Below are positions 1-64,000 of a stretch of DNA of 64,000 bases, in pieces. A model generated the notes under the pieces. It was not told the DNA's origin and searched no databases. It saw only the letters and a program-made list of their open reading frames with translations. A program made the translations under genes and the position numbers. Positions within the stretch are counted from its first letter, which is position 1, and each line of letters opens with the position of its first letter. The DNA is from a virus, in IMG/VR virus record IMGVR_UViG_3300046171_000314, positions 64,001 to 128,000 of that record. One strand, given 5' to 3'.

Positions 1-898
1 AAAACCTCTTATCTTGATCTATATACGTTTGAGCAACCGCCTCTATCAATCGAACCCCAATACCAAAACCTTGATACTTTGGAAGAACCACCAATCGATG
101 TCCTCTCACTGCATTCTTTATAGTGCCTGAGGGAAAGGGGAGAATTGCAAGAAAGCCCACAGGTTTTTCATCTATCAAAGCGAGATAACAAGTGCTTGCT
201 TTATTTATCTGACCTGTCAGGTAGTGATACTTAGCAAACATTCCCCAATAATCAGTACTTGTTCTGAAGATTTGTAACTGCAAAGGTGTCCGAAGTGACC
301 TCCCTACGGACAAAACACCCGTATTAGTGTTGAACACCCAATCAGGGCAAAGCCATTCTAAGATATCTTCGTGACAAGTAGCCACCACCACACCTTTCAG
401 GTTTTCTTTGTCTATGTATCGTCGGACAGACACGGACAGGCTTTTGGCAGTGTCCCTGTCGACAACACTTGTGAATTCATCAAACACCGCCCCATCTTTC
501 AAACCTCTTGCGATCTTAGCCCTGTACTGCTCACCGAAGGAAAGAACGTGGTGTGGTTTCAACCAAGAGGGGATCGTATTCAACCCAACAGACATAAGCC
601 TTTCTATGGCATCATCAGGAGTTTGGAAATGAGAAACTATTGCTTTGTGTCGTTCCCAAGTGAAGTTCTCTTCTTCTCCAAAGTCTTTCAATAAAAGACT
701 TTTCCCTGTGCCACTGTCACCAACGATCATTCCCACTGTAAAGTCTTCGGGTATATCAGGCTTATCCCATAGTTCGAACTCAGTGTATCCTTTGAAGGTG
801 TAGTCTAGAGCCTCGCAAGCACGCTCTACAAATTCATCCATCTCTACTTCCGCTCGAACCTTTCTACGTTCTCCCATTAATAAATCAAGTATGTTCAT
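1..898 (-). CDS. ABC-type ATPase fused to GNAT acetyltransferase (3' end runs off window)
   Basis: Not in ORF track (open at edge). Manual translation: MNILDLLMGERR..., Walker A GDSGTGKS, ABC signature LSFGEQYR, Walker B AVFDEFTSVVD, H-loop VATCH, then GNAT acetyl-CoA motif RLVVLPKYQGFGIG; RBS AAAGGAGAG. Confidence 0.85.
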   Translation of the reverse strand, partial: MNILDLLMGERRKVRAEVEMDEFVERACEALDYTFKGYTEFELWDKPDIPEDFTVGMIVGDSGTGKSLLLKDFGEEENFTWERHKAIVSHFQTPDDAIERLMSVGLNTIPSWLKPHHVLSFGEQYRAKIARGLKDGAVFDEFTSVVDRDTAKSLSVSVRRYIDKENLKGVVVATCHEDILEWLCPDWVFNTNTGVLSVGRSLRTPLQLQIFRTSTDYWGMFAKYHYLTGQINKASTCYLALIDEKPVGFLAILPFPSGTIKNAVRGHRLVVLPKYQGFGIGVRLIEAVAQTYIDQDKRF

Positions 899-916
899 AA
901 TCTCTCCTTTGAGAGA

Positions 917-925
917 CTATACCGA
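917..925 (-). promoter_or_regulatory. class B (TCGGTA[TA]) putative phage promoter
   Basis: TCGGTATAG about 20 nt upstream of the ABC-GNAT start. Confidence 0.45.
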
Positions 926-934
926 TTTCTATTG

Positions 935-1222
935 TTACTTTGGTTTTGATAAGAGTTCTTTTATGTCATCTACCTTTTCGGTCATTGAATCCATCTTGCC
1001 ATCGAGTTTTACAAGTTGGATAGAGTTCTGCATAACGGTCTTTTCAATGGTTTTCATTGCTGTTTCGTTCTCAGCAACCTTTTGTTCAAGTCGGGATAGT
1101 TGTTCATTCTGAACAGCCATTGTTATTTCAAGTTTTATCCCCCAAACAAGCAAGGGAAGCACGAGGAGGGCTAGTCCATCTCGTATGTAAGACCAATAGT
1201 TGGGGGTACTTGGGGCAGACAT
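935..1222 (-). CDS. single-TM coiled-coil membrane protein (holin/antiholin-like possible)
   Basis: N-terminal hydrophobic helix LALLVLPLLVWGI followed by heptad coiled coil; class A motif at 1262-1277. Confidence 0.5.
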   Translation of the reverse strand: MSAPSTPNYWSYIRDGLALLVLPLLVWGIKLEITMAVQNEQLSRLEQKVAENETAMKTIEKTVMQNSIQLVKLDGKMDSMTEKVDDIKELLSKPK

Positions 1223-1300
1223 AATAACTCCAATAAAAGAATATTCTCTAATATCAATTGAATATAGAAAGATGATTGAACTTAAGAACTGCCCTCTGAA

Positions 1301-2077
1301 TCAACTAACTAGGGCATGTCTTAGTTTATCTATTTCACGAAAAATGATTTTTCTCACCGCCTCTCTCGATAAAGAAAATTGTTGTGCAATTTTGTTCAAA
1401 GATTGAGGGGTTTCGCCTGTCAATCCGAAACGCTTTTTTATAATCTCTTGGTGTCTTTGATTGCTTAGTTTATCCAATGCCTCAAGCAGCAACCTTTTTT
1501 CTTCCTCTTCTAAGGTGTGGGATAAAGGATCTTGCACCTGATGATCGACAATAATATCTTTCAGCAGGAAATCTTCTGAGAGGGGTGTCTCTAAAGAGGT
1601 AGGTGGGGGTGGGATGAGGGATATTTGGTCATAATGTTTCTTAGAAATGGCTGTCATTGCCAAACAATCTTCTAAGGAAAACCCTTGTTTAATCATTGCT
1701 TCTATTTGTGAGCAGTGCTTCATTTGCTCTTTTCGATATTCAGGGATAGCAATCAAGTCCGAGTGACACCTCCTCATTGCTTGCTTAATCCACCAAGTTG
1801 CATAGGTTGAGAACCGAAAACCCTTTTCAGGGTCATACTTTTTTGTTGCAATCATCAAGCCGATGTTCCCCTCTTGGATGAGATCCTCAAGAGGGCTTGG
1901 GTTTCTCTTCACTTCTTTTTGAGCAAGAGAAACCACCAAACGGAGGTTTGAAACAATCATTTTCTCAAAGGATCTGACACACCCTTTCTGTATTTTTGTG
2001 CCAAGTTCTAACTCTTCTTTTGCAGACAAGAGTTTGTGGTTCTTCAGTGATTCTAAATACGAGTCAATATCATTCAT
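1301..2077 (-). CDS. phage-encoded RNA polymerase sigma factor, RpoD/SigA-like family lacking region 1.1
   Basis: Region 1.2 YLESLKNHKLLSAKEE; region 2 NLRLVVSLA, DLIQEGNIGL, KYDPEKGFRFSTYATWWIKQA; region 3 SLETP; region 4 HTH IAQQFSLSREAVRKI. Confidence 0.93.
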   Translation of the reverse strand: MNDIDSYLESLKNHKLLSAKEELELGTKIQKGCVRSFEKMIVSNLRLVVSLAQKEVKRNPSPLEDLIQEGNIGLMIATKKYDPEKGFRFSTYATWWIKQAMRRCHSDLIAIPEYRKEQMKHCSQIEAMIKQGFSLEDCLAMTAISKKHYDQISLIPPPPTSLETPLSEDFLLKDIIVDHQVQDPLSHTLEEEEKRLLLEALDKLSNQRHQEIIKKRFGLTGETPQSLNKIAQQFSLSREAVRKIIFREIDKLRHALVS

Positions 2078-2513: not shown

Positions 2514-2547
2514 AGTATTCTCCTGTTGTGCAAGGCTTTTACCGAAT

Positions 2548-3093: not shown

Positions 3094-3153
3094 AACGCTC
3101 CTCTAGTTACCTAGACCCAAATATAGAAACTTAATTGAAGTGCCCCTCTTGGG

Positions 3154-3180
3154 AAAAAAAGACCCCCAAAGTTGGGGGTA
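3154..3180 (-). terminator. rho-independent terminator
   Basis: ACCCCCAA-CT-TTGGGGGT stem followed by T7 on minus strand. Confidence 0.7.
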
Positions 3181-3203
3181 GTGATTTTGTCAAATTCCAT
3201 AGA

Positions 3204-3488: not shown

Positions 3489-3498
3489 AATAGCCTCC

Positions 3499-3648: not shown

Positions 3649-3657
3649 ACTGACCTC

Positions 3658-3870: not shown

Positions 3871-3905
3871 AGTGACCTCCTGTAAAATGTTATGTAATGT
3901 TATAT

Positions 3906-6028: not shown

Positions 6029-6059
6029 AATTTTTAGGGTAAAACAGAGGAGTTATTTG

Positions 6060-7348: not shown

Positions 7349-8675
7349 TTGAAAAGTTTGTATGTTATAGACACATCGGTTTTAATACACGACCCTGATT
7401 GCATATATAAGTTTGTGGGAAATGATGTAGCCATTCCGATATTCGTCATTGTAGAACTTGATGATTTGAAAGAGAAGAAGCATAAGCCCAACGTTGCTTA
7501 TGCCTCTCGTTGTGCATCAAGAACCATTCAAAATATCCATGAACTTGGAAACATTAGGGAAGGAGTTTACTTAGAAGAAGAAAATATAAATGTTAAAGTC
7601 ATCGGAACAACAGGAGGAGAAATCCAAGCCCTTCAAGATAGCACCAATCCTCGAAAAATGGATTTGTGGATTATGCAGTGTGCTCTTTCAATGAGAGAAG
7701 AATATGACAATGTGATTCTTGTGTCGAAGGACTTGAACCTAAGGCTTCTCTCAGAGGGAGAGGGGCTTGTCGCAGAGGACTATGAAAGCAATAAAGTACT
7801 TGTCAGTGAGGTGTATAAAGGATTCAGAGAAATAGGAGAGCAGGAAAGAGCAGCAGAAGTTTATATTCCCAACATCGAGATAGAGGCAGAAGAAATGGTA
7901 GATGAGCCAATTCCAAATGAATTTTACATAGCCACCTGTGAAAAGAGAGACTTCCTTTTCAAGAACTTAGCAGGGTATGTGAGACCTGTTTCAAAAGAAT
8001 TTTCAGACCAACATGTTTCAGTCTCCCCTAGAAACATCGAGCAAAGAATGGCTCTTGATATTCTGTTGAACCCTAATATATCTCTCTTGTGTTTGGTTGG
8101 GAAAGCAGGAACAGGAAAGACCTTCTTAGCCCTCGCAGCAGCATTAGCACAGATCCACAATGGGTATGAAAAGATTATACTTTCAAAGCCGATTATGGAT
8201 ATGGGGAACTCCATTGGATTCTTGCCCGGCGATTTGGATGAGAAACTTGCCCCCTTGGATGGAGTCATACTTCGACAACTTAGACCAACTTATTCCAACG
8301 AAAACCACGATTAGTTGGGGAGGCAAACAAAAGTCTGAACCCAATTGGAAGTACCTATTAGACACAGGGGCGATTGTGATGCAGCCTATCAACTCCATTA
8401 GAGGAAGAAGCATTTCGAACTCTATAATGATCATTGATGAAGCACAGAACCTCACACCACACGAAATAAAAACAATCATTACTCGTGCCGCTGAGGGCAC
8501 AAAGGTTGTTCTTATGGGTGATCCATTCCAAGTAGACAATCAGTTCCTTGATCGAAACTCTAATGGATTGACTTACGTCTGTGACAAGATGAAAGGGAGT
8601 CCTATTTTTGGGGCTGTGTTCTTTTCACAAGGCGTTCGCTCAGAGTTGGCAGAAGAAGCCGCCAATAGGTTGTAA
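7349..8675 (+). CDS. phoH: PIN-domain PhoH-family ATPase (PhoH2/YlaK type), apparent +1 frameshift in C-run 8250-8254
   Basis: PIN: VIDTSVLIHDP, VELDDLK, LVSKDLNLR; PhoH: GKAGTGKT, GFLPGDLDEK(LAPW), IRGRSI, IIDEAQN, GDPFQVD, RSELAE. Confidence 0.9.
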
Positions 8676-16241: not shown

Positions 16242-18599
16242 ATGGAAAAGTACTCAGGCAAGATTCAAGCAGTTGTCTTCAAGAACCCTGATGATCATTT
16301 TTATATAATGAAAATACTTCTTGATAAAGTCCCATCAAATAAAGGCTTAACAAAAGAGGTCATTGCTACAGGGAAGGTTTTTGGGGTTCGTGTTCAAAAA
16401 GGTACTTGGCTATCTTTTGAGGCTAACATCACCAATCACGCTAAGTATGGAAACCAACTTAAAATAACAAAAGCCCCTGCATTTGATTCAAAGAATATGA
16501 CCCCAAAAACAATACAGGGGATTCTTCAGGGTCAAGGTGTTTCAGAACTTGTGGCTCGTGCAATAGTCAAAAAGTTCGGAGAGAGTACTTATGGTGTCTT
16601 ATCAGGGGAAGATGCCTCAGAAGCCCTTCAAAGCATATCAGGCATTAACATGATTAGTGCTGACTTCATTCTTCAAAAGTGGAGAGATTTCTTAGCCCTA
16701 CACCAAACGTTTTCCTTCTTCGAGAAGATAGGGTTGTCTAGCAAGAAATATCAGCAGGTTTTCGCTCACTTTGGATCTGATGCAAAAAAAATTATTTCAG
16801 AAGACCCTTACTTATTGACCGACATAGAGGGGATAACCTTTGAACAAGCAGATGCGGTGGCTTCTCATATAGGGATTCCAAAGAACTCTGTGAAGCGAAC
16901 ATCAGGCTTGGTCTTCTCTGCCTTAAAGTCCGATAGGTCTATGGGACATCTTTATCTAACTCCAAGACAAGTCTTTGACTTTGCTAGAAGAAAGGTTGGT
17001 TCTCTTACGGAAAGCGGTTTGTTGACATCTCTCATATACCTGCACAACCATAAGCGACTTGTTTTTAATATCCCTGACTTTGAATCATTGGGCAAGGTCT
17101 TTTCAGTGAAAGATTCTTTTGACTTGGAGGTATCTTCTCTATCCAAAGAAGAGAGGTATATCTTCTTTGAAAAGGGCTGTGTGTATTCTAAGTGGAATTT
17201 CTTAATAGAACAGAGAAGTGCTGAGATGCTTTTGAAAAGACGAGAGACTATATTGCAGGGAGGTAATGTTTGGACAGAGGTTGAAAAAACATTAGAGGAT
17301 GTTCTCTCGGATGACTCCATAGAAATCACTCTTTCTGAGTTACAAAAAGAAGCAATTGTTACCGCATTATCGAACCCTATCTCGGTTATCACAGGGCTTC
17401 CCGGAACAGGAAAAACCACAACCCTGAAAGTTCTTGTGAAGGTTCTTGATAGAGCAGGGATTACTTTTCAGATGGTTGCTCCAACCGCTATTGCTGCAAA
17501 GAGAATATCCCAAGTGACAAGCAAGCCTGCCTATACAATTCACCGAGCCTTTGGTTCAAAGGGCGGCAAAGATCAAGACAACGAAAGGGAGAACACTTAT
17601 TATGGAGTGGTTGGAGAAAAGAAGCCATCTAATTCGACAGAGAGTTCTCAAACCTTTGAGGGGTGGGAGAAAATGCTTTCGGCTAATATCTTGATTTGTG
17701 ATGAGGCAAGTATGGTCGATCAGCATCTTTTGTATCGTATGTTGAAAGGGACGCACGGTAGGTGTCAATTAGTCTTTGTCGGAGACCACGCACAGTTGCC
17801 AAGTGTGGGGGCAGGAGATGTACTGAAGAGTCTTCTACACTACTTTCCTTCTGTTGCTCTCACTGAAATCTTCCGACAAAGCGACACAAGTGATATTGTG
17901 TATGCCGCTCACGACATACACAAAGGTAACACCCCTGATTTGGGGGATACCTCCGACTCTGATTTTGTTTTTATTTCTTGCGAAAGCCACGTTCAGATTC
18001 AAAATCTTATTCTTAAATTATCTCAGAGAGTGTACGAAAAGAGAGTTCCTTTTCAAGTTTTATCTCCAAGACATTCAAGCGAGTTGGGAGTCACAGAACT
18101 CAATCAAAGATTGAGAGAACTACTAAACACCACAGAAGAGCAAAGTGTTATTCGAGTGGGTAGTCAGTTCTTACGAGAGAATGATCGAGTGATGATCACA
18201 AAGAATGATTACAATCGTTCTGTCTTCAATGGTGACACAGGCAAGATTTATCGTATTATGCAGGATAAAAAGGTCATTGTGAAAATACACGGAGAGCAAG
18301 ACTTCTATGTAGATTTCACACCCAACGAGATTTCAAAGTATTTGCGATTGGCATACTGTACAACGGTACATAAGATGCAGGGTCAGGAAACAGGGATAAT
18401 TATTATGCCCTTAGTTCGTATGTTTTCAAGTCAATTGCAAAGGAACTTGTTGTACACAGCAATAACAAGAGCCAAAGAAAAGGTCATTCTTATAGGACAT
18501 CAAGACTCTTTGATAAAAGCCATAGACAATGACAAAGCCTCAGAAAGAAACACAAGACTTTTGGACAGGCTGCAAGAATACGTTTTGGAATCGGTATAA
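16242..18599 (+). CDS. recD2: RecD2-like SF1B DNA helicase
   Basis: N-terminal OB/HhH region; TGLPGTGKTT, APTAIAA, TIHR, DEASMVD, GDHAQLPSVGAG, LAYCTTVHKMQGQE, LLYTAITRA. Confidence 0.95.
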   Translation: MEKYSGKIQAVVFKNPDDHFYIMKILLDKVPSNKGLTKEVIATGKVFGVRVQKGTWLSFEANITNHAKYGNQLKITKAPAFDSKNMTPKTIQGILQGQGVSELVARAIVKKFGESTYGVLSGEDASEALQSISGINMISADFILQKWRDFLALHQTFSFFEKIGLSSKKYQQVFAHFGSDAKKIISEDPYLLTDIEGITFEQADAVASHIGIPKNSVKRTSGLVFSALKSDRSMGHLYLTPRQVFDFARRKVGSLTESGLLTSLIYLHNHKRLVFNIPDFESLGKVFSVKDSFDLEVSSLSKEERYIFFEKGCVYSKWNFLIEQRSAEMLLKRRETILQGGNVWTEVEKTLEDVLSDDSIEITLSELQKEAIVTALSNPISVITGLPGTGKTTTLKVLVKVLDRAGITFQMVAPTAIAAKRISQVTSKPAYTIHRAFGSKGGKDQDNERENTYYGVVGEKKPSNSTESSQTFEGWEKMLSANILICDEASMVDQHLLYRMLKGTHGRCQLVFVGDHAQLPSVGAGDVLKSLLHYFPSVALTEIFRQSDTSDIVYAAHDIHKGNTPDLGDTSDSDFVFISCESHVQIQNLILKLSQRVYEKRVPFQVLSPRHSSELGVTELNQRLRELLNTTEEQSVIRVGSQFLRENDRVMITKNDYNRSVFNGDTGKIYRIMQDKKVIVKIHGEQDFYVDFTPNEISKYLRLAYCTTVHKMQGQETGIIIMPLVRMFSSQLQRNLLYTAITRAKEKVILIGHQDSLIKAIDNDKASERNTRLLDRLQEYVLESV

Positions 18600-20460: not shown

Positions 20461-20530
20461 TTCAACAACTATCTTGATGATTGAGGGGTGAGGGTATTTT
20501 TCCTTTGCCCCTTTTTTATTGGAGTCTTTT

Positions 20531-21160
20531 ATGAAAATACTTGGTCTTGACCCCTCTCTCACCAATTTTGGTTGGTGTTTTATAGATGACGATGGCTCTA
20601 CTGTGATAGAACGAGGTCGCTTCAAAACAACCTCCAAGCAAATCTTTATTGAACGTTATGTACAACTTAGAGGGGAACTTTCGGATCTCATAGATAGGTT
20701 GAAACCTGATCGAATAGGGATTGAGAGTCCTATTTTCAATGATATGTTCAGTGAAGGAATGTACGGTCTCTTCCTTTTCTGTAACGAGGTCTTTATGACC
20801 AAAAAGAAAGATGTGGCTTTCTTTTCTCCTCCGCAAGTGAAGAGCCACGCTTTTGTTTTCCTAAAGCGACCTAAGGGTTGGAAGATGAAAAAGCAGGATA
20901 TGTGCGAAGCATCTAGAACTAAGTCAGGTGGTGGAAAATGGAATCACAATGAAGCAGATGCCTATTGGGTTGGGGTGACCGCCTACAGGTTTTGGCAATA
21001 CTACGATCAAGTTCTTTCGGTGGATGATCTTACAGAAAAAGAAAAACACCAATTTACAAGAATTCATACATTTAAGAGAGGAAAGAAGATCGGAGAGACA
21101 GTAAAAAGCGGTTTAATACATAGGGAAGATGATCGATTTTTCCTTTGGTCACAAAAATAA
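20531..21160 (+). CDS. ruvC: RuvC-like Holliday junction resolvase
   Basis: ILGLDPSLTNFGW, IGIE, PPQVK, K..M, HNEADA. Confidence 0.88.
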   Translation: MKILGLDPSLTNFGWCFIDDDGSTVIERGRFKTTSKQIFIERYVQLRGELSDLIDRLKPDRIGIESPIFNDMFSEGMYGLFLFCNEVFMTKKKDVAFFSPPQVKSHAFVFLKRPKGWKMKKQDMCEASRTKSGGGKWNHNEADAYWVGVTAYRFWQYYDQVLSVDDLTEKEKHQFTRIHTFKRGKKIGETVKSGLIHREDDRFFLWSQK

Positions 21161-21174: not shown

Positions 21175-22392
21175 ATGGCTAGAAAAACTAAGAAGTCATC
21201 AGCAAAACCAAAGCAAAATGTGAGTGCTTTGGCTAATGCTATGTCAAAAATGAATACTGTTTTCAAGGGGGAGGATGTTGTTGTTTCGTTAGATATCTCT
21301 TCTATGAAACAATCTGTTCCTCATATCCCCACAGGTGCTCTTGCAGTGGATTACTTGATAGGGGGTCGCCCAAATCGTTACGGTGTAGCCCCCTGTCCGG
21401 GACTCCCCAAAGGTCGTATTCTGAACCTTTATGGACACGAGGGCAGCGGCAAGACAACACTTGCTTTGACTACTGTTGCACAGGTTTGTGCCACAGGAGG
21501 GACTGTCTGTTATATAGATTTTGAAAATGCCATTGTGCCTGATTATGCCGCACAAATAGGTGTGCCCATTGAAGATCCAAACAAGTTCTTATTGGTATCC
21601 CCTGAAACCCTCGAAGATGGCATCAAGATAATGTACATTATGTTGAGTGAAGGTGTTGATCTTATCTGTATTGATTCTGTTGGAGCAGGAGTTCCAAAAA
21701 TCGAGTTTGAAAAATCGATCAAAGATACAGACAAACACGCAAAGGTTGGGGAACTTGCACGACTATGGTCGGGACATCTCCCTAAGTTGAAACAAATCGC
21801 ATCAAAGAAAGGCACAACGATTATCGCCATTTCTCAGATCAGAGATAAGATTGGGGGGATGGGCTATGGAGAGCAATCCACTGTTCAAGGGGGTAAGGCA
21901 TGGAAGTTCTATGCGGCTCTCAGAATGAAACTCAGGCGAGTACAACAAGTTAAGGGCAAGGTTTTCAATGCCATCACAGGTCGTTATGAAGACCAAACAA
22001 TTGGGTCTGTTACACGAGCCAAGTTAGACAAGTGTAAAGTAAGTTCTTCTCAAGGTCAAGAGATAGACTTCCATCTTCGACAAGGCGAGGGGATTGACAA
22101 TGCAAGCACCCTCATTGACATTGCAGCAGCACACGGATTCATCAAGAAAGGTGGTTCTTGGTATACTTGGGAAAGACCTCACGCACAAGACATCAAAGTG
22201 CAGGGTTCTGAGAAACTTCGTGAAATGCTCCTAGATGACGATGCCCTCTTTGATGAACTTTGGGCACACTGCATACCGTTATTGTCAGGGGGCAAAGCGG
22301 AAGAAGGAGTCATTCTTGGAGATGACACTCCTGAGGAAGCCTCTGAGTATTCAGACAAAGACCTGTTGAAGGACTTGAAAGATTTAGAATAG
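21175..22392 (+). CDS. recA: RecA recombinase
   Basis: IPTGALAVD..IG, GLPKGRI, YGHEGSGKTT, YIDFEN, IDSV, SQIRDKIG, GGKAWKFYA, KKGGSWY. Confidence 0.96.
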   Translation: MARKTKKSSAKPKQNVSALANAMSKMNTVFKGEDVVVSLDISSMKQSVPHIPTGALAVDYLIGGRPNRYGVAPCPGLPKGRILNLYGHEGSGKTTLALTTVAQVCATGGTVCYIDFENAIVPDYAAQIGVPIEDPNKFLLVSPETLEDGIKIMYIMLSEGVDLICIDSVGAGVPKIEFEKSIKDTDKHAKVGELARLWSGHLPKLKQIASKKGTTIIAISQIRDKIGGMGYGEQSTVQGGKAWKFYAALRMKLRRVQQVKGKVFNAITGRYEDQTIGSVTRAKLDKCKVSSSQGQEIDFHLRQGEGIDNASTLIDIAAAHGFIKKGGSWYTWERPHAQDIKVQGSEKLREMLLDDDALFDELWAHCIPLLSGGKAEEGVILGDDTPEEASEYSDKDLLKDLKDLE

Positions 22393-30789: not shown

Positions 30790-32172
30790 ATGGCATTTGA
30801 TACAAAATATCGTCCTAATGGATATGACTCGGTTATTGGGCAAGAAGCCAATGTAAAGGTTCTACAGAGCATCGTGAAGAATGGATCAGGCTTTCACCAA
30901 TCTTATGTATTTTGTGGGCAGCACGGTACAGGAAAAACCACATTGGGTCGGATTCTTGCACGAGCCTTGCTTTGCGAAAATCCTCAGGAGGGTAATCCTT
31001 GCGATCAGTGCTCTTCTTGTTTGTCTATTTTGGAGAATGGTAGTTCGGAGGGGTTCATAGAAATAGATGCGGCTACAAACTCAGGCAAGGGAGACATTAA
31101 AGAGATAGTGGATCAATTAGAATACGCTACTGTGACAGGAAAGAAAAGGATTTATCTATTTGATGAGGCACATGAGTTATCAAGACAAGCCCTTGATGGT
31201 TTATTGAAGCCGATGGAAGATACAGAGGTGGGATCTGACGATAAAAAGTTGGTGTGCATCTTTTGTACAACCGAGCCTGAGAAGATGCGAAAGACCATCT
31301 TCTCAAGGTGTGCCCCTGCTTTTGTTATTCGTGTTCCAACCCCTCAGGATATAGCAGACAGACTTGTATATGTCTGTGAGAAGGAGGAAATAGAATATGA
31401 CTATGAAGCCCTTGTATCTATTTCGGAGTACTGTTCCTGCCACGTTCGAGATTCTCTTAAGTCTTTACAAGGTGTCTCTTCTTTGGGCAAGGTCGATATG
31501 GCAGCCATTAAGCAATACCTGCGATTAGATGTACAGATAAAATGTTTAGAGGTTCTTGATAACTTAAGATCCGATTTTGCAAAGGCAATCGAGAACTTCG
31601 ATGCTTTAAGGATTATTGCTTCTCCTGCCTCTTGTTACGAGCAACTATCCAAGTTGTCCTTGATGGCATATAGAAAATCATTGGGGGTTTCAAAGATCCC
31701 CGTTTATTTGGATTCCAAAAAGATAGACTCAATCTCTAAACAAGGGCAGCAACTTATAGTTCTCACCCAAAGTTTGCTTTCACATCCACATAATCCCTCT
31801 CACGAAATGCTACTATGTGATCTGTCTAATTATCATTTTGGACAAGCCCCTATACAGACTATAACTAAAGTAGTCACCCAAACTTTAGAACCAAAAACAC
31901 AACCAACACAAAAAAATTCTCAACAGATACCACAAAGTTCGGTATCGTACCAACAACAAAAGCCTACAATTATAAATGGGGTATATCGAGAAGCAAGGGC
32001 GGTTAAGAAACCTCCTAGAAAATCAGAGAGTGTTCCGAAAAAAGAAGGAATACCTTTTGAAGTTTTTAAGGATTTCCTAGACGCTCGCTATCAGGAGTTG
32101 GAACACGAACATGGACAAAAGAGACGAACAAACTTGGGTGGTTTTGGAACTTTCTCACGCAGGAGAGTCTAG
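30790..32172 (+). CDS. dnaX: DNA polymerase III gamma/tau clamp-loader ATPase
   Basis: KYRP..Y..VIGQ, GQHGTGKTT, C..PC..C..C, EIDAA, DEAH, LLKPME, TTEPEK, TIFSRC. Confidence 0.95.
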   Translation: MAFDTKYRPNGYDSVIGQEANVKVLQSIVKNGSGFHQSYVFCGQHGTGKTTLGRILARALLCENPQEGNPCDQCSSCLSILENGSSEGFIEIDAATNSGKGDIKEIVDQLEYATVTGKKRIYLFDEAHELSRQALDGLLKPMEDTEVGSDDKKLVCIFCTTEPEKMRKTIFSRCAPAFVIRVPTPQDIADRLVYVCEKEEIEYDYEALVSISEYCSCHVRDSLKSLQGVSSLGKVDMAAIKQYLRLDVQIKCLEVLDNLRSDFAKAIENFDALRIIASPASCYEQLSKLSLMAYRKSLGVSKIPVYLDSKKIDSISKQGQQLIVLTQSLLSHPHNPSHEMLLCDLSNYHFGQAPIQTITKVVTQTLEPKTQPTQKNSQQIPQSSVSYQQQKPTIINGVYREARAVKKPPRKSESVPKKEGIPFEVFKDFLDARYQELEHEHGQKRRTNLGGFGTFSRRRV

Positions 32173-32647
32173 GGCGAAGGAGGGGATTCTCGAAAAGATT
32201 GTTCGACACGAGTTGGGTGTTGAGCCAACTTTTCCTGTTTTTATACCTATACAGGTATATCAGAAAGGAGATAAGACAATACGAATTGATGGTATGCAGG
32301 GGTATGCCTTTGTGAAAGCAGGGCTTCCCGATCACGTCTATTTTCAATTAGAGCAATCAGATTTTGTGAAGAATGTTATCTCTGCCCCTCATAAAAGAGG
32401 AAGAGTCCTTGCTTGTGTTCCTGATAGTGCCATAGAAGGTGTTCGAGATTCAATTCGAAGAGAGGTAAGCCAAGACCTTGTTGCAGGAACAAGGGTTCGT
32501 GTGCGGACAGGGCTATTCTCCTATCTTGAGGGTGAGGTCATCGACAGAGAAGATGACGATATCATACTAGAAATTAAGATGAGATCCATACACGCAATTG
32601 TGAAAGTACACGGCTTGTATGTTGATCTTGCTGAGGGAGATGCTTAA
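32111..32647 (+). CDS. NusG/RfaH-family transcription elongation/antitermination factor
   Basis: NGN domain (WVVL, VFIP, GYAFVK) plus KOW GTRVRVRTGLFSYLEGEV. Confidence 0.85.
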   Translation: MDKRDEQTWVVLELSHAGESRAKEGILEKIVRHELGVEPTFPVFIPIQVYQKGDKTIRIDGMQGYAFVKAGLPDHVYFQLEQSDFVKNVISAPHKRGRVLACVPDSAIEGVRDSIRREVSQDLVAGTRVRVRTGLFSYLEGEVIDREDDDIILEIKMRSIHAIVKVHGLYVDLAEGDA

Positions 32648-34040: not shown

Positions 34041-34602
34041 ATGGACATATACATATTTGACTTTGATGGTACTTTGATGCGAACACCTGAGGAAACCCCT
34101 TCTTGGTGGAAAGACCCTGCTCCTTTTAGTTGGCACAGTAATCCTGTTTCACTATCTCCTCCTGTTGTTCCCTCAAAGCCAAGCGGAAAACATTGGATTT
34201 CTTGGGTAGCCAAAGAAGCAAAGAGGTCTTTGCAAGACCCCAATGCAAAAGTATTTCTTGTCACTGCGAGAGTTTCTTCTATGAGGCAGAGAATACTTGA
34301 GATTCTGAAGAGTAAAGGTATAGTGTTCGATGGAACTTACTTCAATCCGGGGGACCGATGCTTCGTCTTACAAGAAAAAGGTTTTTCAAGATATTCAAGC
34401 GAAGTACCCTAACCCACAAGAGGTTCACATCTTTGAAGATAATCACCTCAATGCTTATGTTCCTGCCTTAGAAAAAATGTTTCCCTTCTCGAAGGTCTTT
34501 GGGCATGGTGTAAAAGACAGTCAGCATCCGATAGAGCCTGAGGGTATCCCTCAGGACTTAGCCTTAAGGGTTGCTGATCGATACTTGAATAGGAGATACT
34601 AA
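34041..34602 (+). CDS. HAD-superfamily phosphatase (RNA-repair-type HAD), apparent +1 frameshift in G-run 34349-34353
   Basis: FDFDGTL (DxD), VTAR, K, IFEDN; joined reading YFNPGTDASSYKK; C-terminal RVADRYL tag. Confidence 0.8.
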
Positions 34603-41880: not shown

Positions 41881-43698
41881 ATGGCAGGTCTTGCTGACAT
41901 TGCAATGGGTGCAGGCAGGGTTCGTGGCAGTGAAAGTCGAGATGTTGTAGATATTATCACTTTCATTGAGAGCGAATGGGGCTTGAAGATGAAACTTTTC
42001 CCCATTCAAAGAGTGATCTTGAAAGCCCACTATGGGATACCTCTTGATGACAAAGTTAAGGATGTGCCTGTATCGGATTGGAGGCGTATCAATAACAGAA
42101 TGATGACCGAGTTAGAGTACCTCCAATACCTTTATGATGATGGTCGGTGTAACATTAACTATGTTGAAGAAGGACACGAAAGACGAGAAATGATTCTCTC
42201 TGTTGGTCGAAGATCAGGAAAAACTACAATTAGTGCTTGTGTTGCTGCCTATGAGACGTACAAGTTGATTTCAAAAGGTGATCCACAAGCCTTTTATGGG
42301 TTGCCTGCAAGCAACGTTATACAGTTGATATCTGTTGCGACAGATAAAGACCAAGCAGGTTTGTTGTACAACGAGGTATCAGGACACTTTCGGAACTGTA
42401 CTTTTTTCACACCGTATATGGCTAACAACACAATGTCTTACGCAAGGTTTCAAACACCTATGGACATTGATAGGTATGGGTCTTATGCAGAGGACAATAG
42501 TGCCAATGCGAACATCAAGGTAACATTCAGGTCTTGTGTTGCTAAGGGTCTTCGTGGTGCAGGTAATATTTGCGTCATCCTTGATGAGGTTGCTCACTTT
42601 ACGGATAAAGGACAGAGTGGTGCAGAGGCGGTTTATAATGCGGTCACACCTTCGACATCGGCATACTCACAGAAAGACCCCAATGACAAATCAAAGCCTG
42701 TCGGACCTGTTGAAGGTCGAATTATTTCGATTAGTTCCCCTCTTGGAAAACAAGGTTTGTTCTATAAGTTGTTTCAAACTGCTATGGGCAGCGGAAAGGC
42801 AGCGGAGAATATGTTGGCTGTTCAAGCCCCTACTTGGGAGGTAAATCCTACTGTTCCTGCAAGCGAATTTGAGAAGCATTATGTGAAAGACCCACGAGTA
42901 TTTTTTACGGAATATGGTGCAGAGTTTTCAGATAGAACTAGGGGTTGGATAGAAGATAGGGTTGACTTAATGGCTTGTGTCATTGATGGTCGGAAAGCAA
43001 AGCAACGAGGTATTCCTCGATCTCCGCACTTTATGGGAATTGACTTGGGCTTAGTGGGTGATGGCAGTGCCGTTGCTATTGGGCACATAGAAGATGGAAA
43101 GGTGATTCTTGATTGTGTGGAACAAATAAAGGCAGGCGAAGGGGCATTTGTCGACAAGGAAAGACTAGAGTTTGATGATGTTGCTGATTGGGTTTATGAA
43201 TGGACAAAGAAGTTCTACATAAAAGAAGGAATGTTCGATCAATGGGCAGGAATACCTTTTGAACAGGCTCTTGCGAAAAGAGGGTTGAAAGTTATAAAGT
43301 CGAAGCACTTTACAAAGACCCTAACATCTCAAATGTTTCAGAATTTTAAGAACTTAATGTTTGATGAGAAGTTGGAATTATACAATGACCCTTCTGAGGA
43401 AGAGGAGTTGTCAGACTATCTCCAAGAGTTGCTTGAACTTCAAGCCCAAATACATAGCAAACACCTCATTACAGTAGAAGCCCCCCAAGTAGATGGAAAA
43501 CACGATGATATGTCAGATGCCATAGTTCGTATGGTGTGGTGTGCTTCCCAAAATATGTCAAAGCAGTTAAGGATGACTACATCGAGTGGAAAGGTTTTCG
43601 GTAATGCTCCAATAAATTCTAATAGGCGACACGTAAAGAGTAGGGTTAGGGCTATGAAAGGTGGTTCTCATCCAAGTCGATACAAGAAGAAAAGATGA
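41881..43698 (+). CDS. terL: terminase large subunit
   Basis: Walker A GRRSGKTT, Walker B VILDEVAH, coupling ISSP, EYGAEF, nuclease GIDLG...D and KHDDMSDA. Confidence 0.95.
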   Translation: MAGLADIAMGAGRVRGSESRDVVDIITFIESEWGLKMKLFPIQRVILKAHYGIPLDDKVKDVPVSDWRRINNRMMTELEYLQYLYDDGRCNINYVEEGHERREMILSVGRRSGKTTISACVAAYETYKLISKGDPQAFYGLPASNVIQLISVATDKDQAGLLYNEVSGHFRNCTFFTPYMANNTMSYARFQTPMDIDRYGSYAEDNSANANIKVTFRSCVAKGLRGAGNICVILDEVAHFTDKGQSGAEAVYNAVTPSTSAYSQKDPNDKSKPVGPVEGRIISISSPLGKQGLFYKLFQTAMGSGKAAENMLAVQAPTWEVNPTVPASEFEKHYVKDPRVFFTEYGAEFSDRTRGWIEDRVDLMACVIDGRKAKQRGIPRSPHFMGIDLGLVGDGSAVAIGHIEDGKVILDCVEQIKAGEGAFVDKERLEFDDVADWVYEWTKKFYIKEGMFDQWAGIPFEQALAKRGLKVIKSKHFTKTLTSQMFQNFKNLMFDEKLELYNDPSEEEELSDYLQELLELQAQIHSKHLITVEAPQVDGKHDDMSDAIVRMVWCASQNMSKQLRMTTSSGKVFGNAPINSNRRHVKSRVRAMKGGSHPSRYKKKR

Positions 43699-48255: not shown

Positions 48256-49413
48256 ATGTCTAAGAAGGTGTGGTCTGAACTAGAAAGTATTTGGTTTCGA
48301 GAAGCCAAATACAAAGACAAAAAAACCATCAAAAATAAAGATGGTGAAGAGACAACTGTTTATGAATACAGTGATCGTCAGGTCAATACAAGAAACAAGG
48401 AGAAGTCTAAGAAGGTCGAGAAGATACGACAGAACATAGATGCCCTTGAAAAAACGGTTTATTCTGATCTTAAGAGTAAAGAAAACAAATTGGTTGCTCT
48501 TGCGGTTGCTCTCATAAACCACACTTATGAGCGAGTAGGGAACGATGAGAGTGCTTCCAATGGTCACTATGGGGTAACAGGTTGGAAGAAGAAGCATCTG
48601 TCTTTCAAAGGCGGCAAAGCCATTCTTAAATACACAGGCAAGAGTGGTGTAAAGCACGAGAAAGAAATCACCGACAAGAAACTCGTCAGTGCTTTGAAAG
48701 AGATTTCAAAAGGATTATCAGGAGATGATTGTTTGTTGGAAGAGATCAGTGCCTCAGATGTGAATGACTATCTTGATCAATTTGGAATCACTGCGAAGGA
48801 TATCAGAGGATATCACGCCAACAGAGAAATGCAGGAACGCCTTAAAGCCCTCCGAGAAGAAAACGGTGCTCTGCCTAAGGATAAGAAAGAAAAAGAACAA
48901 CAACTCAAAGACGAGTTCAAAGAGGCATTAGAGGGAACAGCAAACTCGGTAGGGCACGAAGAGGCAACTCTCAGAAAGCAATACCTTGTGCCACACCTAG
49001 AAGACACCTATATGAAAGATGGTACGGTTATCACTACTCTGAAGGAAGCCTCTCGACTAGGGGACTGTTATGAGGCGGCAGGTAGGTATATGCTTGACAA
49101 CTGCCACAGGAAAAACCTAATTCTTGTCCATGCGGAGGTAACAGGTCAGGGTAGGATTGATGGTGTGAAGTACGGACACGCATTTATTCTTGATGGCAAT
49201 ACTGTAATAGATGTCTCAAATGGCAATAACATTAAGATGGAAAAAATGGTCTATTTCTTATTGGGTAAAATTGGGCAGTACGACCTGAAAACAGGGGATG
49301 TAGACACTAGCAAAGCCAATATGCACACATACACTTGCGACCAATTTCGAGAAAAGATTAGTAGACACGAACATTGGGGTCCGTGGGATCTTCAAACAAG
49401 TACAGGGTACTGA
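48256..49413 (+). CDS. DNA topoisomerase IB fused to a C-terminal Cys-His-Asp domain
   Basis: Catalytic pentad: ERVGN (R), GKSGV (K), KDIRGYHAN (R), VGH (H), RKQYL (Y); then GDCYEAA...GHAF...ID. Confidence 0.88.
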   Translation: MSKKVWSELESIWFREAKYKDKKTIKNKDGEETTVYEYSDRQVNTRNKEKSKKVEKIRQNIDALEKTVYSDLKSKENKLVALAVALINHTYERVGNDESASNGHYGVTGWKKKHLSFKGGKAILKYTGKSGVKHEKEITDKKLVSALKEISKGLSGDDCLLEEISASDVNDYLDQFGITAKDIRGYHANREMQERLKALREENGALPKDKKEKEQQLKDEFKEALEGTANSVGHEEATLRKQYLVPHLEDTYMKDGTVITTLKEASRLGDCYEAAGRYMLDNCHRKNLILVHAEVTGQGRIDGVKYGHAFILDGNTVIDVSNGNNIKMEKMVYFLLGKIGQYDLKTGDVDTSKANMHTYTCDQFREKISRHEHWGPWDLQTSTGY

Positions 49414-62082: not shown

Positions 62083-62111
62083 TACTTGAATAGTCAATAA
62101 CTTTAAGTTAT

Positions 62112-62146
62112 CCCCCACTTCTTTTGAGGTGGGGGTTTTCTTTTTT
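62112..62146 (+). terminator. rho-independent terminator
   Basis: CCCCCACTTC-TTTT-GAGGTGGGGG then T-rich. Confidence 0.8.
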
Positions 62147-62208
62147 GGGTATAGTATGCACAAGTGATAATCTTTGTATATTTATCTCTCTTTGCACAGG
62201 AGATGTTT

Positions 62209-62565
62209 ATGTCTGACAATGAAGAAAAATTAGTAAATTTGGGTCTTGGTGATGCCATTCTCAGGTTGGTGCGTGTTCAATTTCAGCATCATATGAATTT
62301 TGGAGATACCAATAAAGCAAACAAAGAAGAAACACAAATGATTGTTGAGGCTCTTAATCAATATGAGTTAGACTTAGGGTTTGATTGTAATATGGATGGT
62401 GTTCCTGATACCATTGGGGATATAGCAGCCTTGAACAGCCTTAATATATTTAATGTGTCTGCGAAGACTTCTTGTTGTCGGATTTCTTTCACAGGAGAGA
62501 AGGAAGAGACCCCCAAGAAGAAGAGCACGATTCGTAGAAAGAAAACAAGTTCACGAAGAAAATAG
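62209..62565 (+). CDS. hypothetical protein
   Basis: Class A motif 62166-62181; DCNMDGVPD Ca-binding-like motif; basic tail. Confidence 0.65.
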   Translation: MSDNEEKLVNLGLGDAILRLVRVQFQHHMNFGDTNKANKEETQMIVEALNQYELDLGFDCNMDGVPDTIGDIAALNSLNIFNVSAKTSCCRISFTGEKEETPKKKSTIRRKKTSSRRK

Positions 62566-62574
62566 GAGAATAAA

Positions 62575-62889
62575 ATGTATCCAACTTTTGTTTTATTGCT
62601 TATGGCATACGCCATTTGTTTTGGTATCCAACACAAAGTGCCCTTCTTTCATAGAAAGTTTGGTTGGGTAGACAGTATGCTCGAATGTACATACTGCACA
62701 GGTTTCCACGCAGGGTGGATTACTTGGGCATTAACACACGCACTTCTTTGGAAAGCCCCTGCGGAATCCATAGGTGGAAATATCTTGTCAGTTATCTCTT
62801 GGGCTTTTGCTTCTGCTATCTTTTGCTATATTGCGGATGCTCTTGTGAAATGGTTCGAGGTTAATTCTGTTGAGATTGAGGAAGAGTAG
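62575..62889 (+). CDS. DUF1360-like membrane protein
   Basis: LECTYCTGFHAGW motif and three hydrophobic helices. Confidence 0.65.
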   Translation: MYPTFVLLLMAYAICFGIQHKVPFFHRKFGWVDSMLECTYCTGFHAGWITWALTHALLWKAPAESIGGNILSVISWAFASAIFCYIADALVKWFEVNSVEIEEE

Positions 62890-63297
62890 ATGCCAATTGC
62901 TAGACAAGGGACTAGCAGTGGTGGGTCTTCCTTTGCTCACCCCTTTCCTGCAAATGAACTTATCCCACAAGGCTCTTTGGTGGCTGTCACACACTCAGGT
63001 GGAAACACAGAAATAGAGTTAGCACAACCAAGCACCAATGGGGAACGAGCCTTAGGTTTTGCGGTGGATGAGATTGCCGAAAATGCCACAGGCAAGTTCA
63101 TAGTTAGTCGAGGGGCTTTGGTGACACCTGTGATAGCAGGAGGGGGAACGTTCACCCCTAATGACCCTGTGTATATGGTGGCGAATGGGGAGGTTTCACA
63201 AACACCTCCTTCTCAGGGTACAGTTACAATGATTGGTTATGCCACATCAACAACCGAACTTATACTTACAACAGATTTCAGGTTTATAAGACCATAA
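62890..63297 (+). CDS. capsid cement/fibre-base-like (DUF2190-like) protein
   Basis: ALGFA......G, F.PNDPVY....G.....PP......IGYA. Confidence 0.55.
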   Translation: MPIARQGTSSGGSSFAHPFPANELIPQGSLVAVTHSGGNTEIELAQPSTNGERALGFAVDEIAENATGKFIVSRGALVTPVIAGGGTFTPNDPVYMVANGEVSQTPPSQGTVTMIGYATSTTELILTTDFRFIRP

Positions 63298-63332
63298 ACT
63301 TGGTACAATAACAAACAAATTAGGAGAGCAAT

Positions 63333-64000
63333 ATGCAATTCACAAAGGGCACATTCCAAGAGTTCCGAGCGACAACCAAAGTACATTTGGGACAGGCAGG
63401 GATAGATATTCATCAGGATGACATCATTGAGTTTGATGGTCAGACATTAAATTATGGAGGCAATACTCACCAAGTTCCAACACTACGCTCGGCTATAAAG
63501 GCAGGGTGGTTTGTTTCTTCTACGGACACAACCTCTAAGTATGTTCCAAAGAGTGCTTCTATTTCTATTCGTTCAGCGAACACAGATGAGAAGAAGCAAA
63601 TGTCTGTTAAGACAGTTCAGAATGAGGAGAGGGTTGTTGGGCGAGTTCCTGAAAAAGAAGATCCTTCAAAGGTGCAAGTTCAAGATGAGGGTACTCCTGT
63701 AAAGACGACATTAAAAACCTCCACTAAACAGAAGACCGTATTGACAGACAAGACAAATGTTGATCAAGAGGTCTCTAAACTTGAAAACACACAGGTGAAG
63801 TCAAGCAAGTATCAGGTCGTTCGACAAGAAGATCAACGAGTGGAAACCTCACGAACCCCAAGTCCAAAAGCCTCTGTACAAACAAGCAGAGATGATGGGG
63901 CGATTGTTGCAGGCAAGATAAAAAGTCCTGCCAAACAAAAGATTTCCCTTGATGGGACAAACAAGTCTTTTGATCAAGTGTATGCCCCAAAGAAAGCAGA
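63333..64000 (+). CDS. hypothetical protein (3' end runs off window)
   Basis: Not in track: MQFTKGTFQEFRATTKVHLG..., TAGGAG RBS. Confidence 0.75.
   Translation, partial: MQFTKGTFQEFRATTKVHLGQAGIDIHQDDIIEFDGQTLNYGGNTHQVPTLRSAIKAGWFVSSTDTTSKYVPKSASISIRSANTDEKKQMSVKTVQNEERVVGRVPEKEDPSKVQVQDEGTPVKTTLKTSTKQKTVLTDKTNVDQEVSKLENTQVKSSKYQVVRQEDQRVETSRTPSPKASVQTSRDDGAIVAGKIKSPAKQKISLDGTNKSFDQVYAPKKA

What the first reader, a model, noticed from the sequence alone, without database searches (positions are those of the whole stretch)
1..64000. Extreme 4-mer avoidance (CCAG/CTGG, AGCT, GGCC, GCGC, CCGG) that appears to reshape the proteome
Seen by eye, not counted exhaustively: I found no CCAG, CTGG, AGCT, GGCC or GCGC. 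Codon choice is context-dependent. The fibre gene uses GCT/ACT/TCT freely but switches to GCA/ACA/TCA before Gly (acaggt, tcaggt, gcaggt). Pro before a G-starting codon is CCT, and Lys/Gln-Ala is written AAG GCT, AAA GCC or CAA GCC. Every encoding of Pro-Gly contains CCAG, CTGG or CCGG. I found only four Pro-Gly dipeptides (PhoH ~8225, RecD Walker A ~17400, RecA ~21397, HAD ~34347), all written with CCGG, which I saw nowhere else. Trp-Pro forces GGCC and I found none. The usual NusG FPGY motif is MQGY here. Inference: strong selection by several host restriction systems, including an unusual asymmetric CCAG/CTGG (or CCRG) specificity.
Basis: partly seen in the sequence, partly recalled or inferred. 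Interest (0 to 1): 0.8.

Follow-up and report, generated by a model that had tools for sequence, protein, structure and literature searches.

The report
Marine phage purged of restriction sites
A large uncultured ocean phage has removed six four-letter DNA words and about twenty longer ones from its genome, most likely to escape many host restriction enzymes, and the purge goes deep enough to have removed several amino-acid pairs from its proteins; this is an extreme case of a known strategy, not a new mechanism.

Summary
The window has 0 AGCT, CCAG, CTGG, GGCC and GCGC, and 4 CCGG at the stated places. The pattern holds over the whole 147,878-bp IMG/VR record: 0, 0, 1, 3, 0, 9 and 0. Shuffling synonymous codons predicts 457 AGCT, 602 CCAG/CTGG, 222 GGCC, 134 GCGC, 134 CCGG and 119 CGCG.

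About 20 longer words are also purged, including CCNGG, GGNCC, GGNNCC, CCNNGG, GRCGYC, CYCGRG, GRGCYC, GACGG and CGCCG.

Peptides that cannot be written without a purged word are depleted: PG 7/106, WP 3/24, GP 21/106, PW 6/24 and [MW][VADEG]P 3/22. PG conserved in high-GC relatives is kept at 0 of 11 positions, against 56% for other dipeptides.

Close relatives share a core purge but differ in CCAG, GGCC/GCGC/CGCG, CTAG and GACGG. CCAG is therefore a separate 4-bp specificity, not CCRG.

Best reading: restriction-site avoidance under many R-M systems of an unknown marine host. The NusG example does not hold.

Phage K and Anabaena phage A-4L also lack Gly-Pro and Trp-Pro. This scan found forbidden dipeptides before on other DNA (e1-5351561, e1-3415497). 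The case is extreme but of a known kind.

The parts
1..64000 (.). Whole window (G000:C1:64001-128000): zero AGCT, CCAG, CTGG, CGCG, GCGC and GGCC, and 4 CCGG. Part of a purge that covers the whole record.
8226..8229 (+). Residual CCGG in the forced Pro-Gly codons CCC GGC of the PhoH motif GFLPGDL.
17401..17404 (+). Residual CCGG in the forced Pro-Gly codons CCC GGA of the RecD2 Walker A motif GLPGTGKT.
21397..21400 (+). Residual CCGG in the forced Pro-Gly codons CCG GGA of the RecA-like recombinase.
34347..34350 (+). Residual CCGG in the forced Pro-Gly codons CCG GGG of the HAD-family gene. This record has one extra G here compared with two 99%-related assemblies.
7349..8675 (+). PIN-PhoH gene, split in this record by one extra C at 8250. 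Read without it, the site is Pro-Trp written CCT TGG, a forced CCNNGG.
30790..32172 (+). Clamp-loader ATPase whose P-loop reads GQHGTGK where high-GC orthologues have GPWGSGK. This is a Gly-Pro (forced GGNCC) replaced at a conserved position.
32111..32647 (+). NusG-like gene with MQGY. Orthologues in all relatives read [IM]EGY, so it is not evidence that PG was lost.
41881..43698 (+). Large terminase gene, used as the marker to find and rank relatives.
49378..49386 (+). Codons GGT CCG TGG (Gly-Pro-Trp). They carry one of the residual GGWCC sites and one residual CCNNGG site, and both are forced.
42703..42707 (+). Residual GGACC in the forced Gly-Pro codons GGA CCT of the terminase. It is one of 21 forced sites among the 23 GGWCC in the record.

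Best explanation
This is restriction-site avoidance carried to an extreme.

The phage is an uncultured marine tailed phage of a huge-phage lineage. The record is 148 kb and CheckV estimates it at 56% complete. It apparently carries ordinary, unmethylated DNA. Its host population holds many restriction-modification systems, mostly with 4- to 6-bp G+C-rich targets. Any genome that carries a target is cut on entry, so variants lacking targets have been fixed.

Where a synonymous codon removes the word, codon choice has become dependent on the neighbouring codon. Where no synonymous encoding exists, the amino acids themselves have been replaced. This applies to:
- Pro-Gly (always CCNGG);
- Trp-Pro (always GGCC);
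- Gly-Pro (always GGNCC);
- Pro-Trp (always CCNNGG);
- Met/Trp-[VADEG]-Pro (always GGNNCC).

The exceptions are functionally constrained positions. There the least-penalised spelling is used: Pro-Gly is always CCC/CCG-GGN and never CCA/CCT-GGN.

CCAG/CTGG is a further, separate 4-bp asymmetric target, acquired after the split from relatives at 78-79% TerL identity.

Shown here: the purge, its independence from protein sequence and codon usage, its strand symmetry, the forced nature of the residual sites, the amino-acid replacements, and the mosaic among relatives. Inferred: that restriction enzymes of the host are the selective agent.
For: - Depth of the purge: six 4-mer classes are at 0-0.07 of the codon-shuffled expectation. 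About 20 longer words are at 0.15 or less and include known Type II prototype patterns.
- Both orientations of the asymmetric words are purged although 151 of 209 ORFs lie on one strand: CCAG 0 / CTGG 1, GACGG 2 / CCGTC 0, CGCCG 0 / CGGCG 1.
- Residual sites are forced: 7 of 9 CCGG are Pro-Gly, 3 of 3 GGCC are Trp-Pro, and 21 of 23 GGWCC are Gly-Pro. Most residual GGNNCC and CCNNGG sites are also forced.
- PG, WP, GP and PW are the four most depleted of 400 dipeptides. [MW][VADEG]P is 3 observed against 22 expected, while control tripeptides are near expectation.
- Orthologue test: PG conserved in at least 75% of three or more high-GC orthologues is retained at 0 of 11 positions, against 912 of 1617 for other conserved dipeptides (Fisher p = 1e-4). 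The forced dipeptides together are retained at 2 of 19 (p = 6e-5).
- Mosaic among relatives. The subclade at 78% TerL identity or more shares the purge of AGCT, CCGG, CCNGG, GGNCC, GGNNCC and CCNNGG, and has 0 PG. Its members differ in CCAG, in CGCG/GCGC/GGCC, in CTAG, ACGT and CATG, and in GACGG and GACTG. High-GC relatives show no purge and have PG at about expectation.
- The same zero counts appear in three independent assemblies of strains with 99% identical TerL.
- No C5, N4/N6 or D12 methyltransferase, thymidylate-synthase-like or integrase family was found in the 148 kb.
- The over-represented words are synonymous escape spellings (CAGG, AGCC, CAAG, CCAA), not deamination products.
Against: The host is unknown, so no cognate restriction enzyme or methylome could be matched.

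The record is only about 56% complete by CheckV's estimate. Methyltransferase or base-modification genes could lie in the missing part.

The published survey found avoidance of asymmetric, Type III or Type IIG targets to be rare (PMC6286503). The complete purge of CCAG, GACGG and CGCCG is therefore atypical for the known kind.

The gene calls behind the dipeptide counts are crude (longest ORFs). At least two genes in this record carry homopolymer frameshifts.
Confidence: 0.88

Rival explanations
1. Mutational decay, not selection. The words are targets of host or phage C5/N4 cytosine methyltransferases, and deamination of methylated cytosines has eroded them.
For: Five of the six purged 4-mers (AGCT, GGCC, GCGC, CCGG, CGCG) are classic cytosine-methyltransferase targets (own knowledge). 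CpG is generally low in the record, at 0.61.
Against: Mutation bias gives partial depletion, not 0 of 457 or 1 of 602. Deamination products are not enriched: GCGT/ACGC is at 0.58 and CGTG and TGCG are at about 1.0. CTGG/CCAG, the deamination product of CCGG, is itself absent. Words without a CpG or a typical m5C context (TTTAAA, ATGCAT, CATG) are purged too. Amino-acid replacement at conserved positions needs selection. No methyltransferase family was found in the record.
Confidence: 0.03
2. Self-avoidance. The phage, or a co-infecting element, encodes sequence-specific nucleases that destroy host DNA, and the phage genome lacks their targets so that it is spared.
For: The record encodes nucleases: a PD-(D/E)XK protein at window 25488-26420 and a weak RuvC-like match at 20519-21160. 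About 44% of the genome is unseen by CheckV's estimate.
Against: More than 20 independent specificities would need many nuclease genes. The nucleases seen look like recombination and repair enzymes next to RecA, RecD2 and SbcCD-like genes. The purge sets differ between relatives that are colinear across the 10-20 kb head and replication stretch compared.
Confidence: 0.04
3. Artefact of assembly, filtering or sequencing chemistry, or selection at the RNA or translation level.
For: The record has at least two homopolymer indel errors or variants.
Against: The same zero counts appear in three independent assemblies from ENA and Logan, and seawater runs from several studies hold the sequence. ORFs are intact and homologous to those of relatives. 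Depletion is equal for a word and its reverse complement despite a strong bias in gene orientation, which RNA-level selection would not produce.
Confidence: 0.01

Closest known systems
Restriction-site (palindrome) avoidance in non-temperate dsDNA phages, as surveyed by Rusinov et al. 2018 (PMC6286503)
   Same: Short, mostly palindromic Type II-like words are eliminated or nearly so. No integrase was found. The depletion acts at the DNA level and is strand-symmetric.
   Different: The scale is larger: six 4-mer classes and about 20 longer words at once in 148 kb. Complete purge of asymmetric words (CCAG, GACGG, CGCCG) on both strands is a class the survey found rarely avoided. That paper never mentions codons or amino acids. 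Here the purge measurably changes protein sequences.
Staphylococcus phage K (GATC and GGNCC avoidance)
   Same: In its first 50 kb, GATC is 0 against 125 expected and GGCC is 0 against 29. Gly-Pro is 0 against 17 and Trp-Pro is 0 against 2.9. Forbidden dipeptides therefore already exist in a textbook phage.
   Different: Only 3 4-mer classes fall below 0.1 there, against 6 here. Pro-Gly (18/17) and Pro-Trp (3/2.9) are normal in K but depleted here.
Anabaena phage A-4L (cyanophage of a restriction-rich host)
   Same: GATC is 0 against 90 and GGCC is 0 against 58. Gly-Pro is 0 against 36 and Trp-Pro is 0 against 7.7.
   Different: Pro-Gly is normal (33/36). AGCT, CCAG, GCGC, CGCG and CCGG are not purged. 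It is a different lineage with a cultured host.
Coliphage T7 and Type III EcoP15I (evasion by keeping all sites in one orientation; own knowledge, and discussed in PMC6286503)
   Same: An asymmetric target is under selection in a phage genome.
   Different: Here both orientations are removed. The single-orientation solution is not used, which argues for an enzyme that cuts at single sites.
CCAG-specific DNA methyltransferase of Helicobacter pylori A45, and the CCAG methylated motif in Thermacetogenium phaeum (PMC10689673)
   Same: It shows that a 4-bp asymmetric CCAG specificity exists in R-M-type enzymes.
   Different: Only methylation was shown, and in unrelated bacteria. No link to this phage's host is known.
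Earlier cases in this scan (e1-5351561 freshwater phage; e1-3415497 34-kb phage)
   Same: Uncultured aquatic phages whose restriction-word purge removes dipeptides such as Gly-Pro, Pro-Gly and Trp-Pro.
   Different: They are other genomes, and I did not check them here. This case adds the CCAG purge and a set of relatives with differing purge sets.

Membership tests
Restriction-site avoidance (anti-restriction by site elimination) | Target words lie far below the expectation from composition and from codon-preserving shuffles. | tested here: met
   O/E is 0-0.07 for six 4-mer classes, with Poisson p from 1e-45 to 1e-258.
Restriction-site avoidance (anti-restriction by site elimination) | The depleted words are of the kind restriction enzymes recognise (short, mostly palindromic). 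| tested here: met
   Five of the six 4-mers are palindromes. The longer words collapse to CCNGG, GGNCC, GGNNCC, CCNNGG, GRCGYC, CYCGRG, GRGCYC, CTGCAG, ATGCAT, CGATCG and TTTAAA. Matching these to named prototype enzymes rests on my own knowledge.
Restriction-site avoidance (anti-restriction by site elimination) | Depletion acts on double-stranded DNA: it is equal for a word and its reverse complement, whatever the direction of transcription. | tested here: met
Restriction-site avoidance (anti-restriction by site elimination) | The host encodes R-M systems with the avoided specificities. | not testable with these tools
   The host is unknown. The only genome hit is a 64% TerL relative binned in an Actinomycetota MAG. 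The habitat is seawater.
Restriction-site avoidance (anti-restriction by site elimination) | The phage does not protect the same sites with its own methylation or base modification. | tested here: inconclusive
   No PF00145, PF01555, PF02086 or PF00303 match in the 148 kb, but the record is about 56% complete by CheckV's estimate.
Restriction-site avoidance (anti-restriction by site elimination) | Non-temperate lifestyle (avoidance is strongest in virulent phages). | tested here: inconclusive
   No tyrosine or serine recombinase family was found, but the record is incomplete.
Type III evasion by orientation bias (T7/EcoP15I type) | Asymmetric sites are kept in one orientation only. | tested here: not met
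   CCAG 0 / CTGG 1, GACGG 2 / CCGTC 0, CGCCG 0 / CGGCG 1. Relatives also show no orientation bias.

The most novel reading that the evidence does not exclude
The complete two-strand purge of the asymmetric words CCAG/CTGG, GACGG/CCGTC and CGCCG/CGGCG, and the strong purge of GACTG/CAGTC, reports restriction activities in an uncultured marine host that cut at single sites and have not been characterised. The differing purge sets of closely related phages would then be a readable record of the R-M repertoires of host strains. That record could assign hosts by methylome matching. It could also measure how fast phage genomes, and their proteins, track changes in host defence.
Probability: 0.45. 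Interest if true: 0.6.

Novelty: new member of a known kind. Interest (0 to 1): 0.5.

Why it matters
The case shows how far restriction pressure can push a virus. It changes which amino-acid neighbours are allowed, as well as silent codon choice, even in conserved motifs such as a clamp-loader P-loop. That is a measurable protein-level cost of evading a DNA-level defence.

The set of related marine phages with overlapping but different purge lists is a natural experiment on the turnover of host R-M repertoires. It also offers a possible way to link uncultured phages to hosts through methylomes.

Two practical warnings follow. Codon- or k-mer-based host predictors will be misled by such genomes. 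Dipeptide-based protein models will be misled too.

Tried and rejected
- Near-identical phages: a megablast of 24 kb against 50,697 phage records found nothing.
- RecA by tblastn: only distant hits, at most 47% identity to an uncultured 485-kb phage.
- Host identification failed.
  - The record has one tRNA, Arg-TCT.
  - Cluster names gave no organism.
  - The genome-contig scan gave only a 64% TerL hit in an Actinomycetota MAG and a 30% hit in a Paludibacteraceae MAG, which may be binning artefacts.
  - The Atlas neighbours of the sigma factor are generic.
  - Marine methylome papers list CGCG in Acidimicrobiia, AGCT in Thaumarchaeota and CCNGG/GGWCC/RGCY in viral MAGs, but no taxon with the full set and no CCAG.
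- CCRG as one specificity: rejected, because relatives purge CCGG but not CCAG.
- CCAG as a union of longer known sites: rejected, because all eight one-base flanking contexts are purged, each against 87-211 expected.
- NusG FPGY to MQGY as an example of PG loss: rejected.
- Literature on amino-acid effects of site avoidance: searches found none. This covers open-access text only.


Full report
**What the window is.** The window is bases 64001-128000 of a single 147,878-bp contig. It is an IMG/VR virus record, linear, and CheckV estimates it at 56% complete. It encodes a large terminase, a portal and a prohead protease-like protein. It also encodes RecD2, RecA, a class II ribonucleotide reductase and clamp-loader subunits. 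Further genes are PIN-PhoH, sigma factors, a primase-like Toprim protein and a PD-(D/E)XK nuclease. Seawater and marine metagenomes from several studies hold the sequence. Its terminase has hundreds of metagenomic relatives, many on contigs of 200-470 kb, so it belongs to a huge-phage lineage. No similar record exists among 50,697 deposited phages.

**Checking the observation.** CCAG, CTGG, AGCT, GGCC and GCGC are 0 in 64 kb, and CCGG occurs four times, at 8226, 17401, 21397 and 34347. CGCG is also 0. In the whole record the counts are AGCT 0, CCAG 0, CTGG 1, CGCG 0, GCGC 0, GGCC 3 and CCGG 9. G+C is 41.9%, and first-order Markov expectations run from about 100 to about 1000 per word.

I then shuffled synonymous codons within each of 209 crudely called ORFs, which keeps every protein and each gene's codon usage. 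The expected counts are 457 AGCT, 602 CCAG/CTGG, 119 CGCG, 134 GCGC, 222 GGCC and 134 CCGG. This test is conservative, because codon usage is itself shaped by the purge.

The purge is not limited to these words. Against the codon shuffle, observed and expected counts are:

| Word | Observed | Expected |
|---|---|---|
| CCNGG | 7 | 123 |
| GGNCC | 26 | 165 |
| GGNNCC | 11 | 208 |
| CCNNGG | 14 | 211 |
| GRCGYC | 2 | 50 |
| CYCGRG | 1 | 56 |
| GRGCYC | 0 | 56 |
| CGATCG | 0 | 15 |
| CTGCAG | 2 | 26 |
| ATGCAT | 2 | 25 |
| ACTAGT | 1 | 16 |
| GTGCAC | 1 | 13 |
| TTTAAA | 8 | 52 |
| GACGG | 2 | 120 |
| CGCCG | 1 | 79 |
| GACTG | 18 | 154 |
| CATG | 80 | 327 |

GATC, TCGA, GTAC, TGCA, GCNGC, CCTC and CCGC are near expectation.

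**Codon context.**
- Before a codon that starts with GG, Ala, Thr and four-fold Ser use NCA 396 times, NCG 25 times, NCT once and NCC never. Elsewhere NCT is the commonest choice.
- Pro before other G-starting codons is CCT 394 times, CCC 24, CCG 2 and CCA 0.
- Ala is never GCT after a codon ending in AA, and never GCC after a codon ending in AG.

**Residual sites.** The sites that remain are almost all ones that cannot be removed silently.
- Seven of the nine CCGG are Pro-Gly.
- All three GGCC are Trp-Pro.
- Twenty-one of the 23 GGWCC are Gly-Pro.
- Every Pro-Gly is written CCC or CCG before GGN, never CCA or CCT. The leakiest word (CCGG) is chosen over CCAG/CTGG.

Residual GGNNCC and CCNNGG sites are likewise mostly Gly-Pro, Trp-Pro, Trp-x-Pro, Pro-Trp or Pro-Gly.

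**Effect on proteins.** Among all 400 dipeptides the four lowest observed/expected ratios are PG 7/106, WP 3/24, GP 21/106 and PW 6/24. These are exactly the pairs whose every encoding contains CCNGG, GGCC, GGNCC or CCNNGG.

A fifth class follows from GGNNCC. Met or Trp followed by V/A/D/E/G and then Pro occurs 3 times against 22 expected, while three control tripeptide classes are near expectation.

The loss can also be seen in orthologues. I took 20 proteins with at least three orthologues in high-GC relatives. A dipeptide conserved in at least 75% of those orthologues is retained here in 912 of 1617 cases (56%). Conserved PG is retained in 0 of 11 cases (Fisher p = 1e-4). The four forced dipeptides together are retained in 2 of 19 (p = 6e-5). 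One example is the clamp-loader P-loop, GPWGSGK in relatives and GQHGTGK here.

The retained PGs sit in motifs such as the RecD2 Walker A motif and the PhoH motif GFLPGD.

The whole phage family, including relatives that use PG freely, has [IM]EGY at that place.

**Relatives.** This comparison is the most informative result. Three independent assemblies of strains with 99% identical TerL show the same zero counts. The table gives observed/expected counts for closer relatives.

| Relative (TerL identity) | AGCT | CCAG | CGCG | GCGC | GGCC | CCGG | CTAG | ACGT |
|---|---|---|---|---|---|---|---|---|
| L021 (87%) | 0/29 | 3/61 | 9/7 | 3/7 | 17/17 | 0/16 | 0/24 | 0/22 |
| L020 (79%) | 0/49 | 102/98 | 0/18 | 0/17 | 0/33 | 0/34 | 0/44 | 4/39 |
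| L025 (78%) | 0/53 | 138/119 | 0/21 | 0/21 | 3/34 | 0/34 | 26/42 | 11/46 |
| L027 (78%) | 0/38 | 67/79 | 0/15 | 2/14 | 1/21 | 0/24 | 25/32 | 6/35 |

- L020 also has no CCNGG, GGNNCC or CCNNGG. All of its CCAG sites are CCAGH, that is, never CCAGG.
- L025 and L027 resemble L020 for CCAG and also keep GACGG and GACTG, but they do not purge CTAG.
- All of these relatives have zero Pro-Gly.
- Relatives at 67-68% identity (38-42% G+C) show other combinations and a PG ratio of 0.3-0.6.
- High-GC relatives (52-64% G+C) show no purge except CTAG, and PG is near 1.

Three conclusions follow. A core purge is old in the marine low-GC subclade. Individual words come and go on short evolutionary distances. 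CCAG/CTGG is an independent target, separate from both CCGG and CCNGG. All eight one-base contexts of CCAG are individually purged here, each against 87-211 expected, so no union of longer known sites explains it.

**Mechanism.** The best explanation is selection by restriction endonucleases acting on incoming unmethylated double-stranded DNA.
- The words are of the kind such enzymes recognise.
- The depletion is equal on both strands despite a 151:58 bias in gene orientation.
- The over-represented words are the synonymous escape spellings CAGG/CCTG, AGCC/GGCT, CAAG/CTTG and CCAA/TTGG. They are not deamination products.
- No methyltransferase, thymidylate-synthase-like or integrase family is found in the 148 kb, though about 44% of the genome may be missing.

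For the asymmetric words, removal of both orientations argues against a classical Type III enzyme, which a phage can evade by keeping one orientation. It argues for enzymes that cut at single sites. That step is inference.

A CCAG-specific methyltransferase has been confirmed in Helicobacter pylori A45, and CCAG methylation was seen in Thermacetogenium phaeum (PMC10689673). The specificity therefore exists in nature.

**Rivals.**
- Methylation-driven mutational decay cannot give zero counts, does not predict the amino-acid replacements, and its expected products are not enriched.
- Self-avoidance of phage-encoded nucleases would need many nuclease genes. The relatives compared are colinear over the 10-20 kb stretch examined yet differ in purge sets.
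- An artefact is excluded by the independent assemblies.

**Comparison with what is known.** Site avoidance is a classic anti-restriction strategy. The main survey (PMC6286503) reports complete or near-complete elimination for about a tenth of viral genomes. It finds avoidance mostly for orthodox Type II sites and rarely for asymmetric or Type III sites. It does not mention codons or amino acids.

Forbidden dipeptides are, however, implicit in known phages. In the first 50 kb of Staphylococcus phage K, GP is 0/17 and WP is 0/2.9. In Anabaena phage A-4L, GP is 0/36 and WP is 0/7.7. In both, PG is normal. Microcystis phage Ma-LMM01 shows nothing comparable. Those comparators have at most three 4-mer classes below 0.1; this window has six.

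This scan has also reported purge-driven loss of dipeptides in two other uncultured aquatic phages (I did not recheck them).

The present case is therefore an unusually deep member of a known kind. It has three less usual features: five classes of excluded peptides, fully purged asymmetric words, and a set of relatives that documents turnover of the purge.

**Limits.** The host is not identified. The gene calls are crude. The record carries at least two homopolymer indels. One is an extra C at 8250 that splits PhoH and is absent from contigs of two other runs. The other is an extra G at the HAD CCGG site, absent from two related assemblies. Neither affects the word counts.

Noticed in passing
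window 8250 (PhoH gene 7349-8675): This record has a run of five C that splits PIN-PhoH into two overlapping ORFs. Pfam PhoH positions 2-94 fall in one ORF and 75-199 in the other. Contigs of two other seawater runs have one C fewer, which restores a single frame reading ...LAPWMESYF... This is probably an assembly error or a strain variant.
   Followed up: yes
window 34347-34352 (HAD gene 34041-34412): One extra G (G5 against G4 in the 99%-related loci L022 and L023) truncates the HAD_SAK_1 gene to 123 aa, against 186 aa in the relatives. Like the PhoH case, it lies in one of the rare G/C homopolymers that forced Pro-Gly or Pro-Trp codons create.
   Followed up: partly
L035 (Anabaena phage A-4L, NC_024358, whole 41,750 bp): Besides GATC (0/90) and GGCC (0/58), the asymmetric word AATC/GATT is completely absent (0 against about 249 expected). 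This suggests avoidance of RATC/GATY in that cultured cyanophage.
   Followed up: no
L029 and L030 (relatives at 67-68% TerL identity): The relatives show their own purge sets. L029 has CATG 1/115, CCCG 1/20 and AGCT 0/104, GATC about 2-fold over-represented (188/90), and CCAGA rare while CCAGT is common. L030 has CTAG 0/92 and CATG 3/65.
   Followed up: partly
window 48256-49413, and loci L022, L027, L030: A eukaryote-type topoisomerase IB domain (PF01028) is recorded on the protein just downstream of the portal module. In some relatives it lies on giant proteins of 852-1934 aa in the head module.
   Followed up: no
window 1301-2077 (-) and 32647-33252 (+): The phage encodes a full sigma-70-type factor (regions 1.2, 2 and 4) and a second protein with only region 4. 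The latter lies next to a NusG-like gene and the clamp loader, an arrangement conserved in relatives.
   Followed up: no
relatives' terminase genes (proteins P0021-P0112): Many relatives carry one or two inteins or homing endonucleases (PF14890, PF14528) inside the large terminase. The terminase of this phage has none.
   Followed up: no
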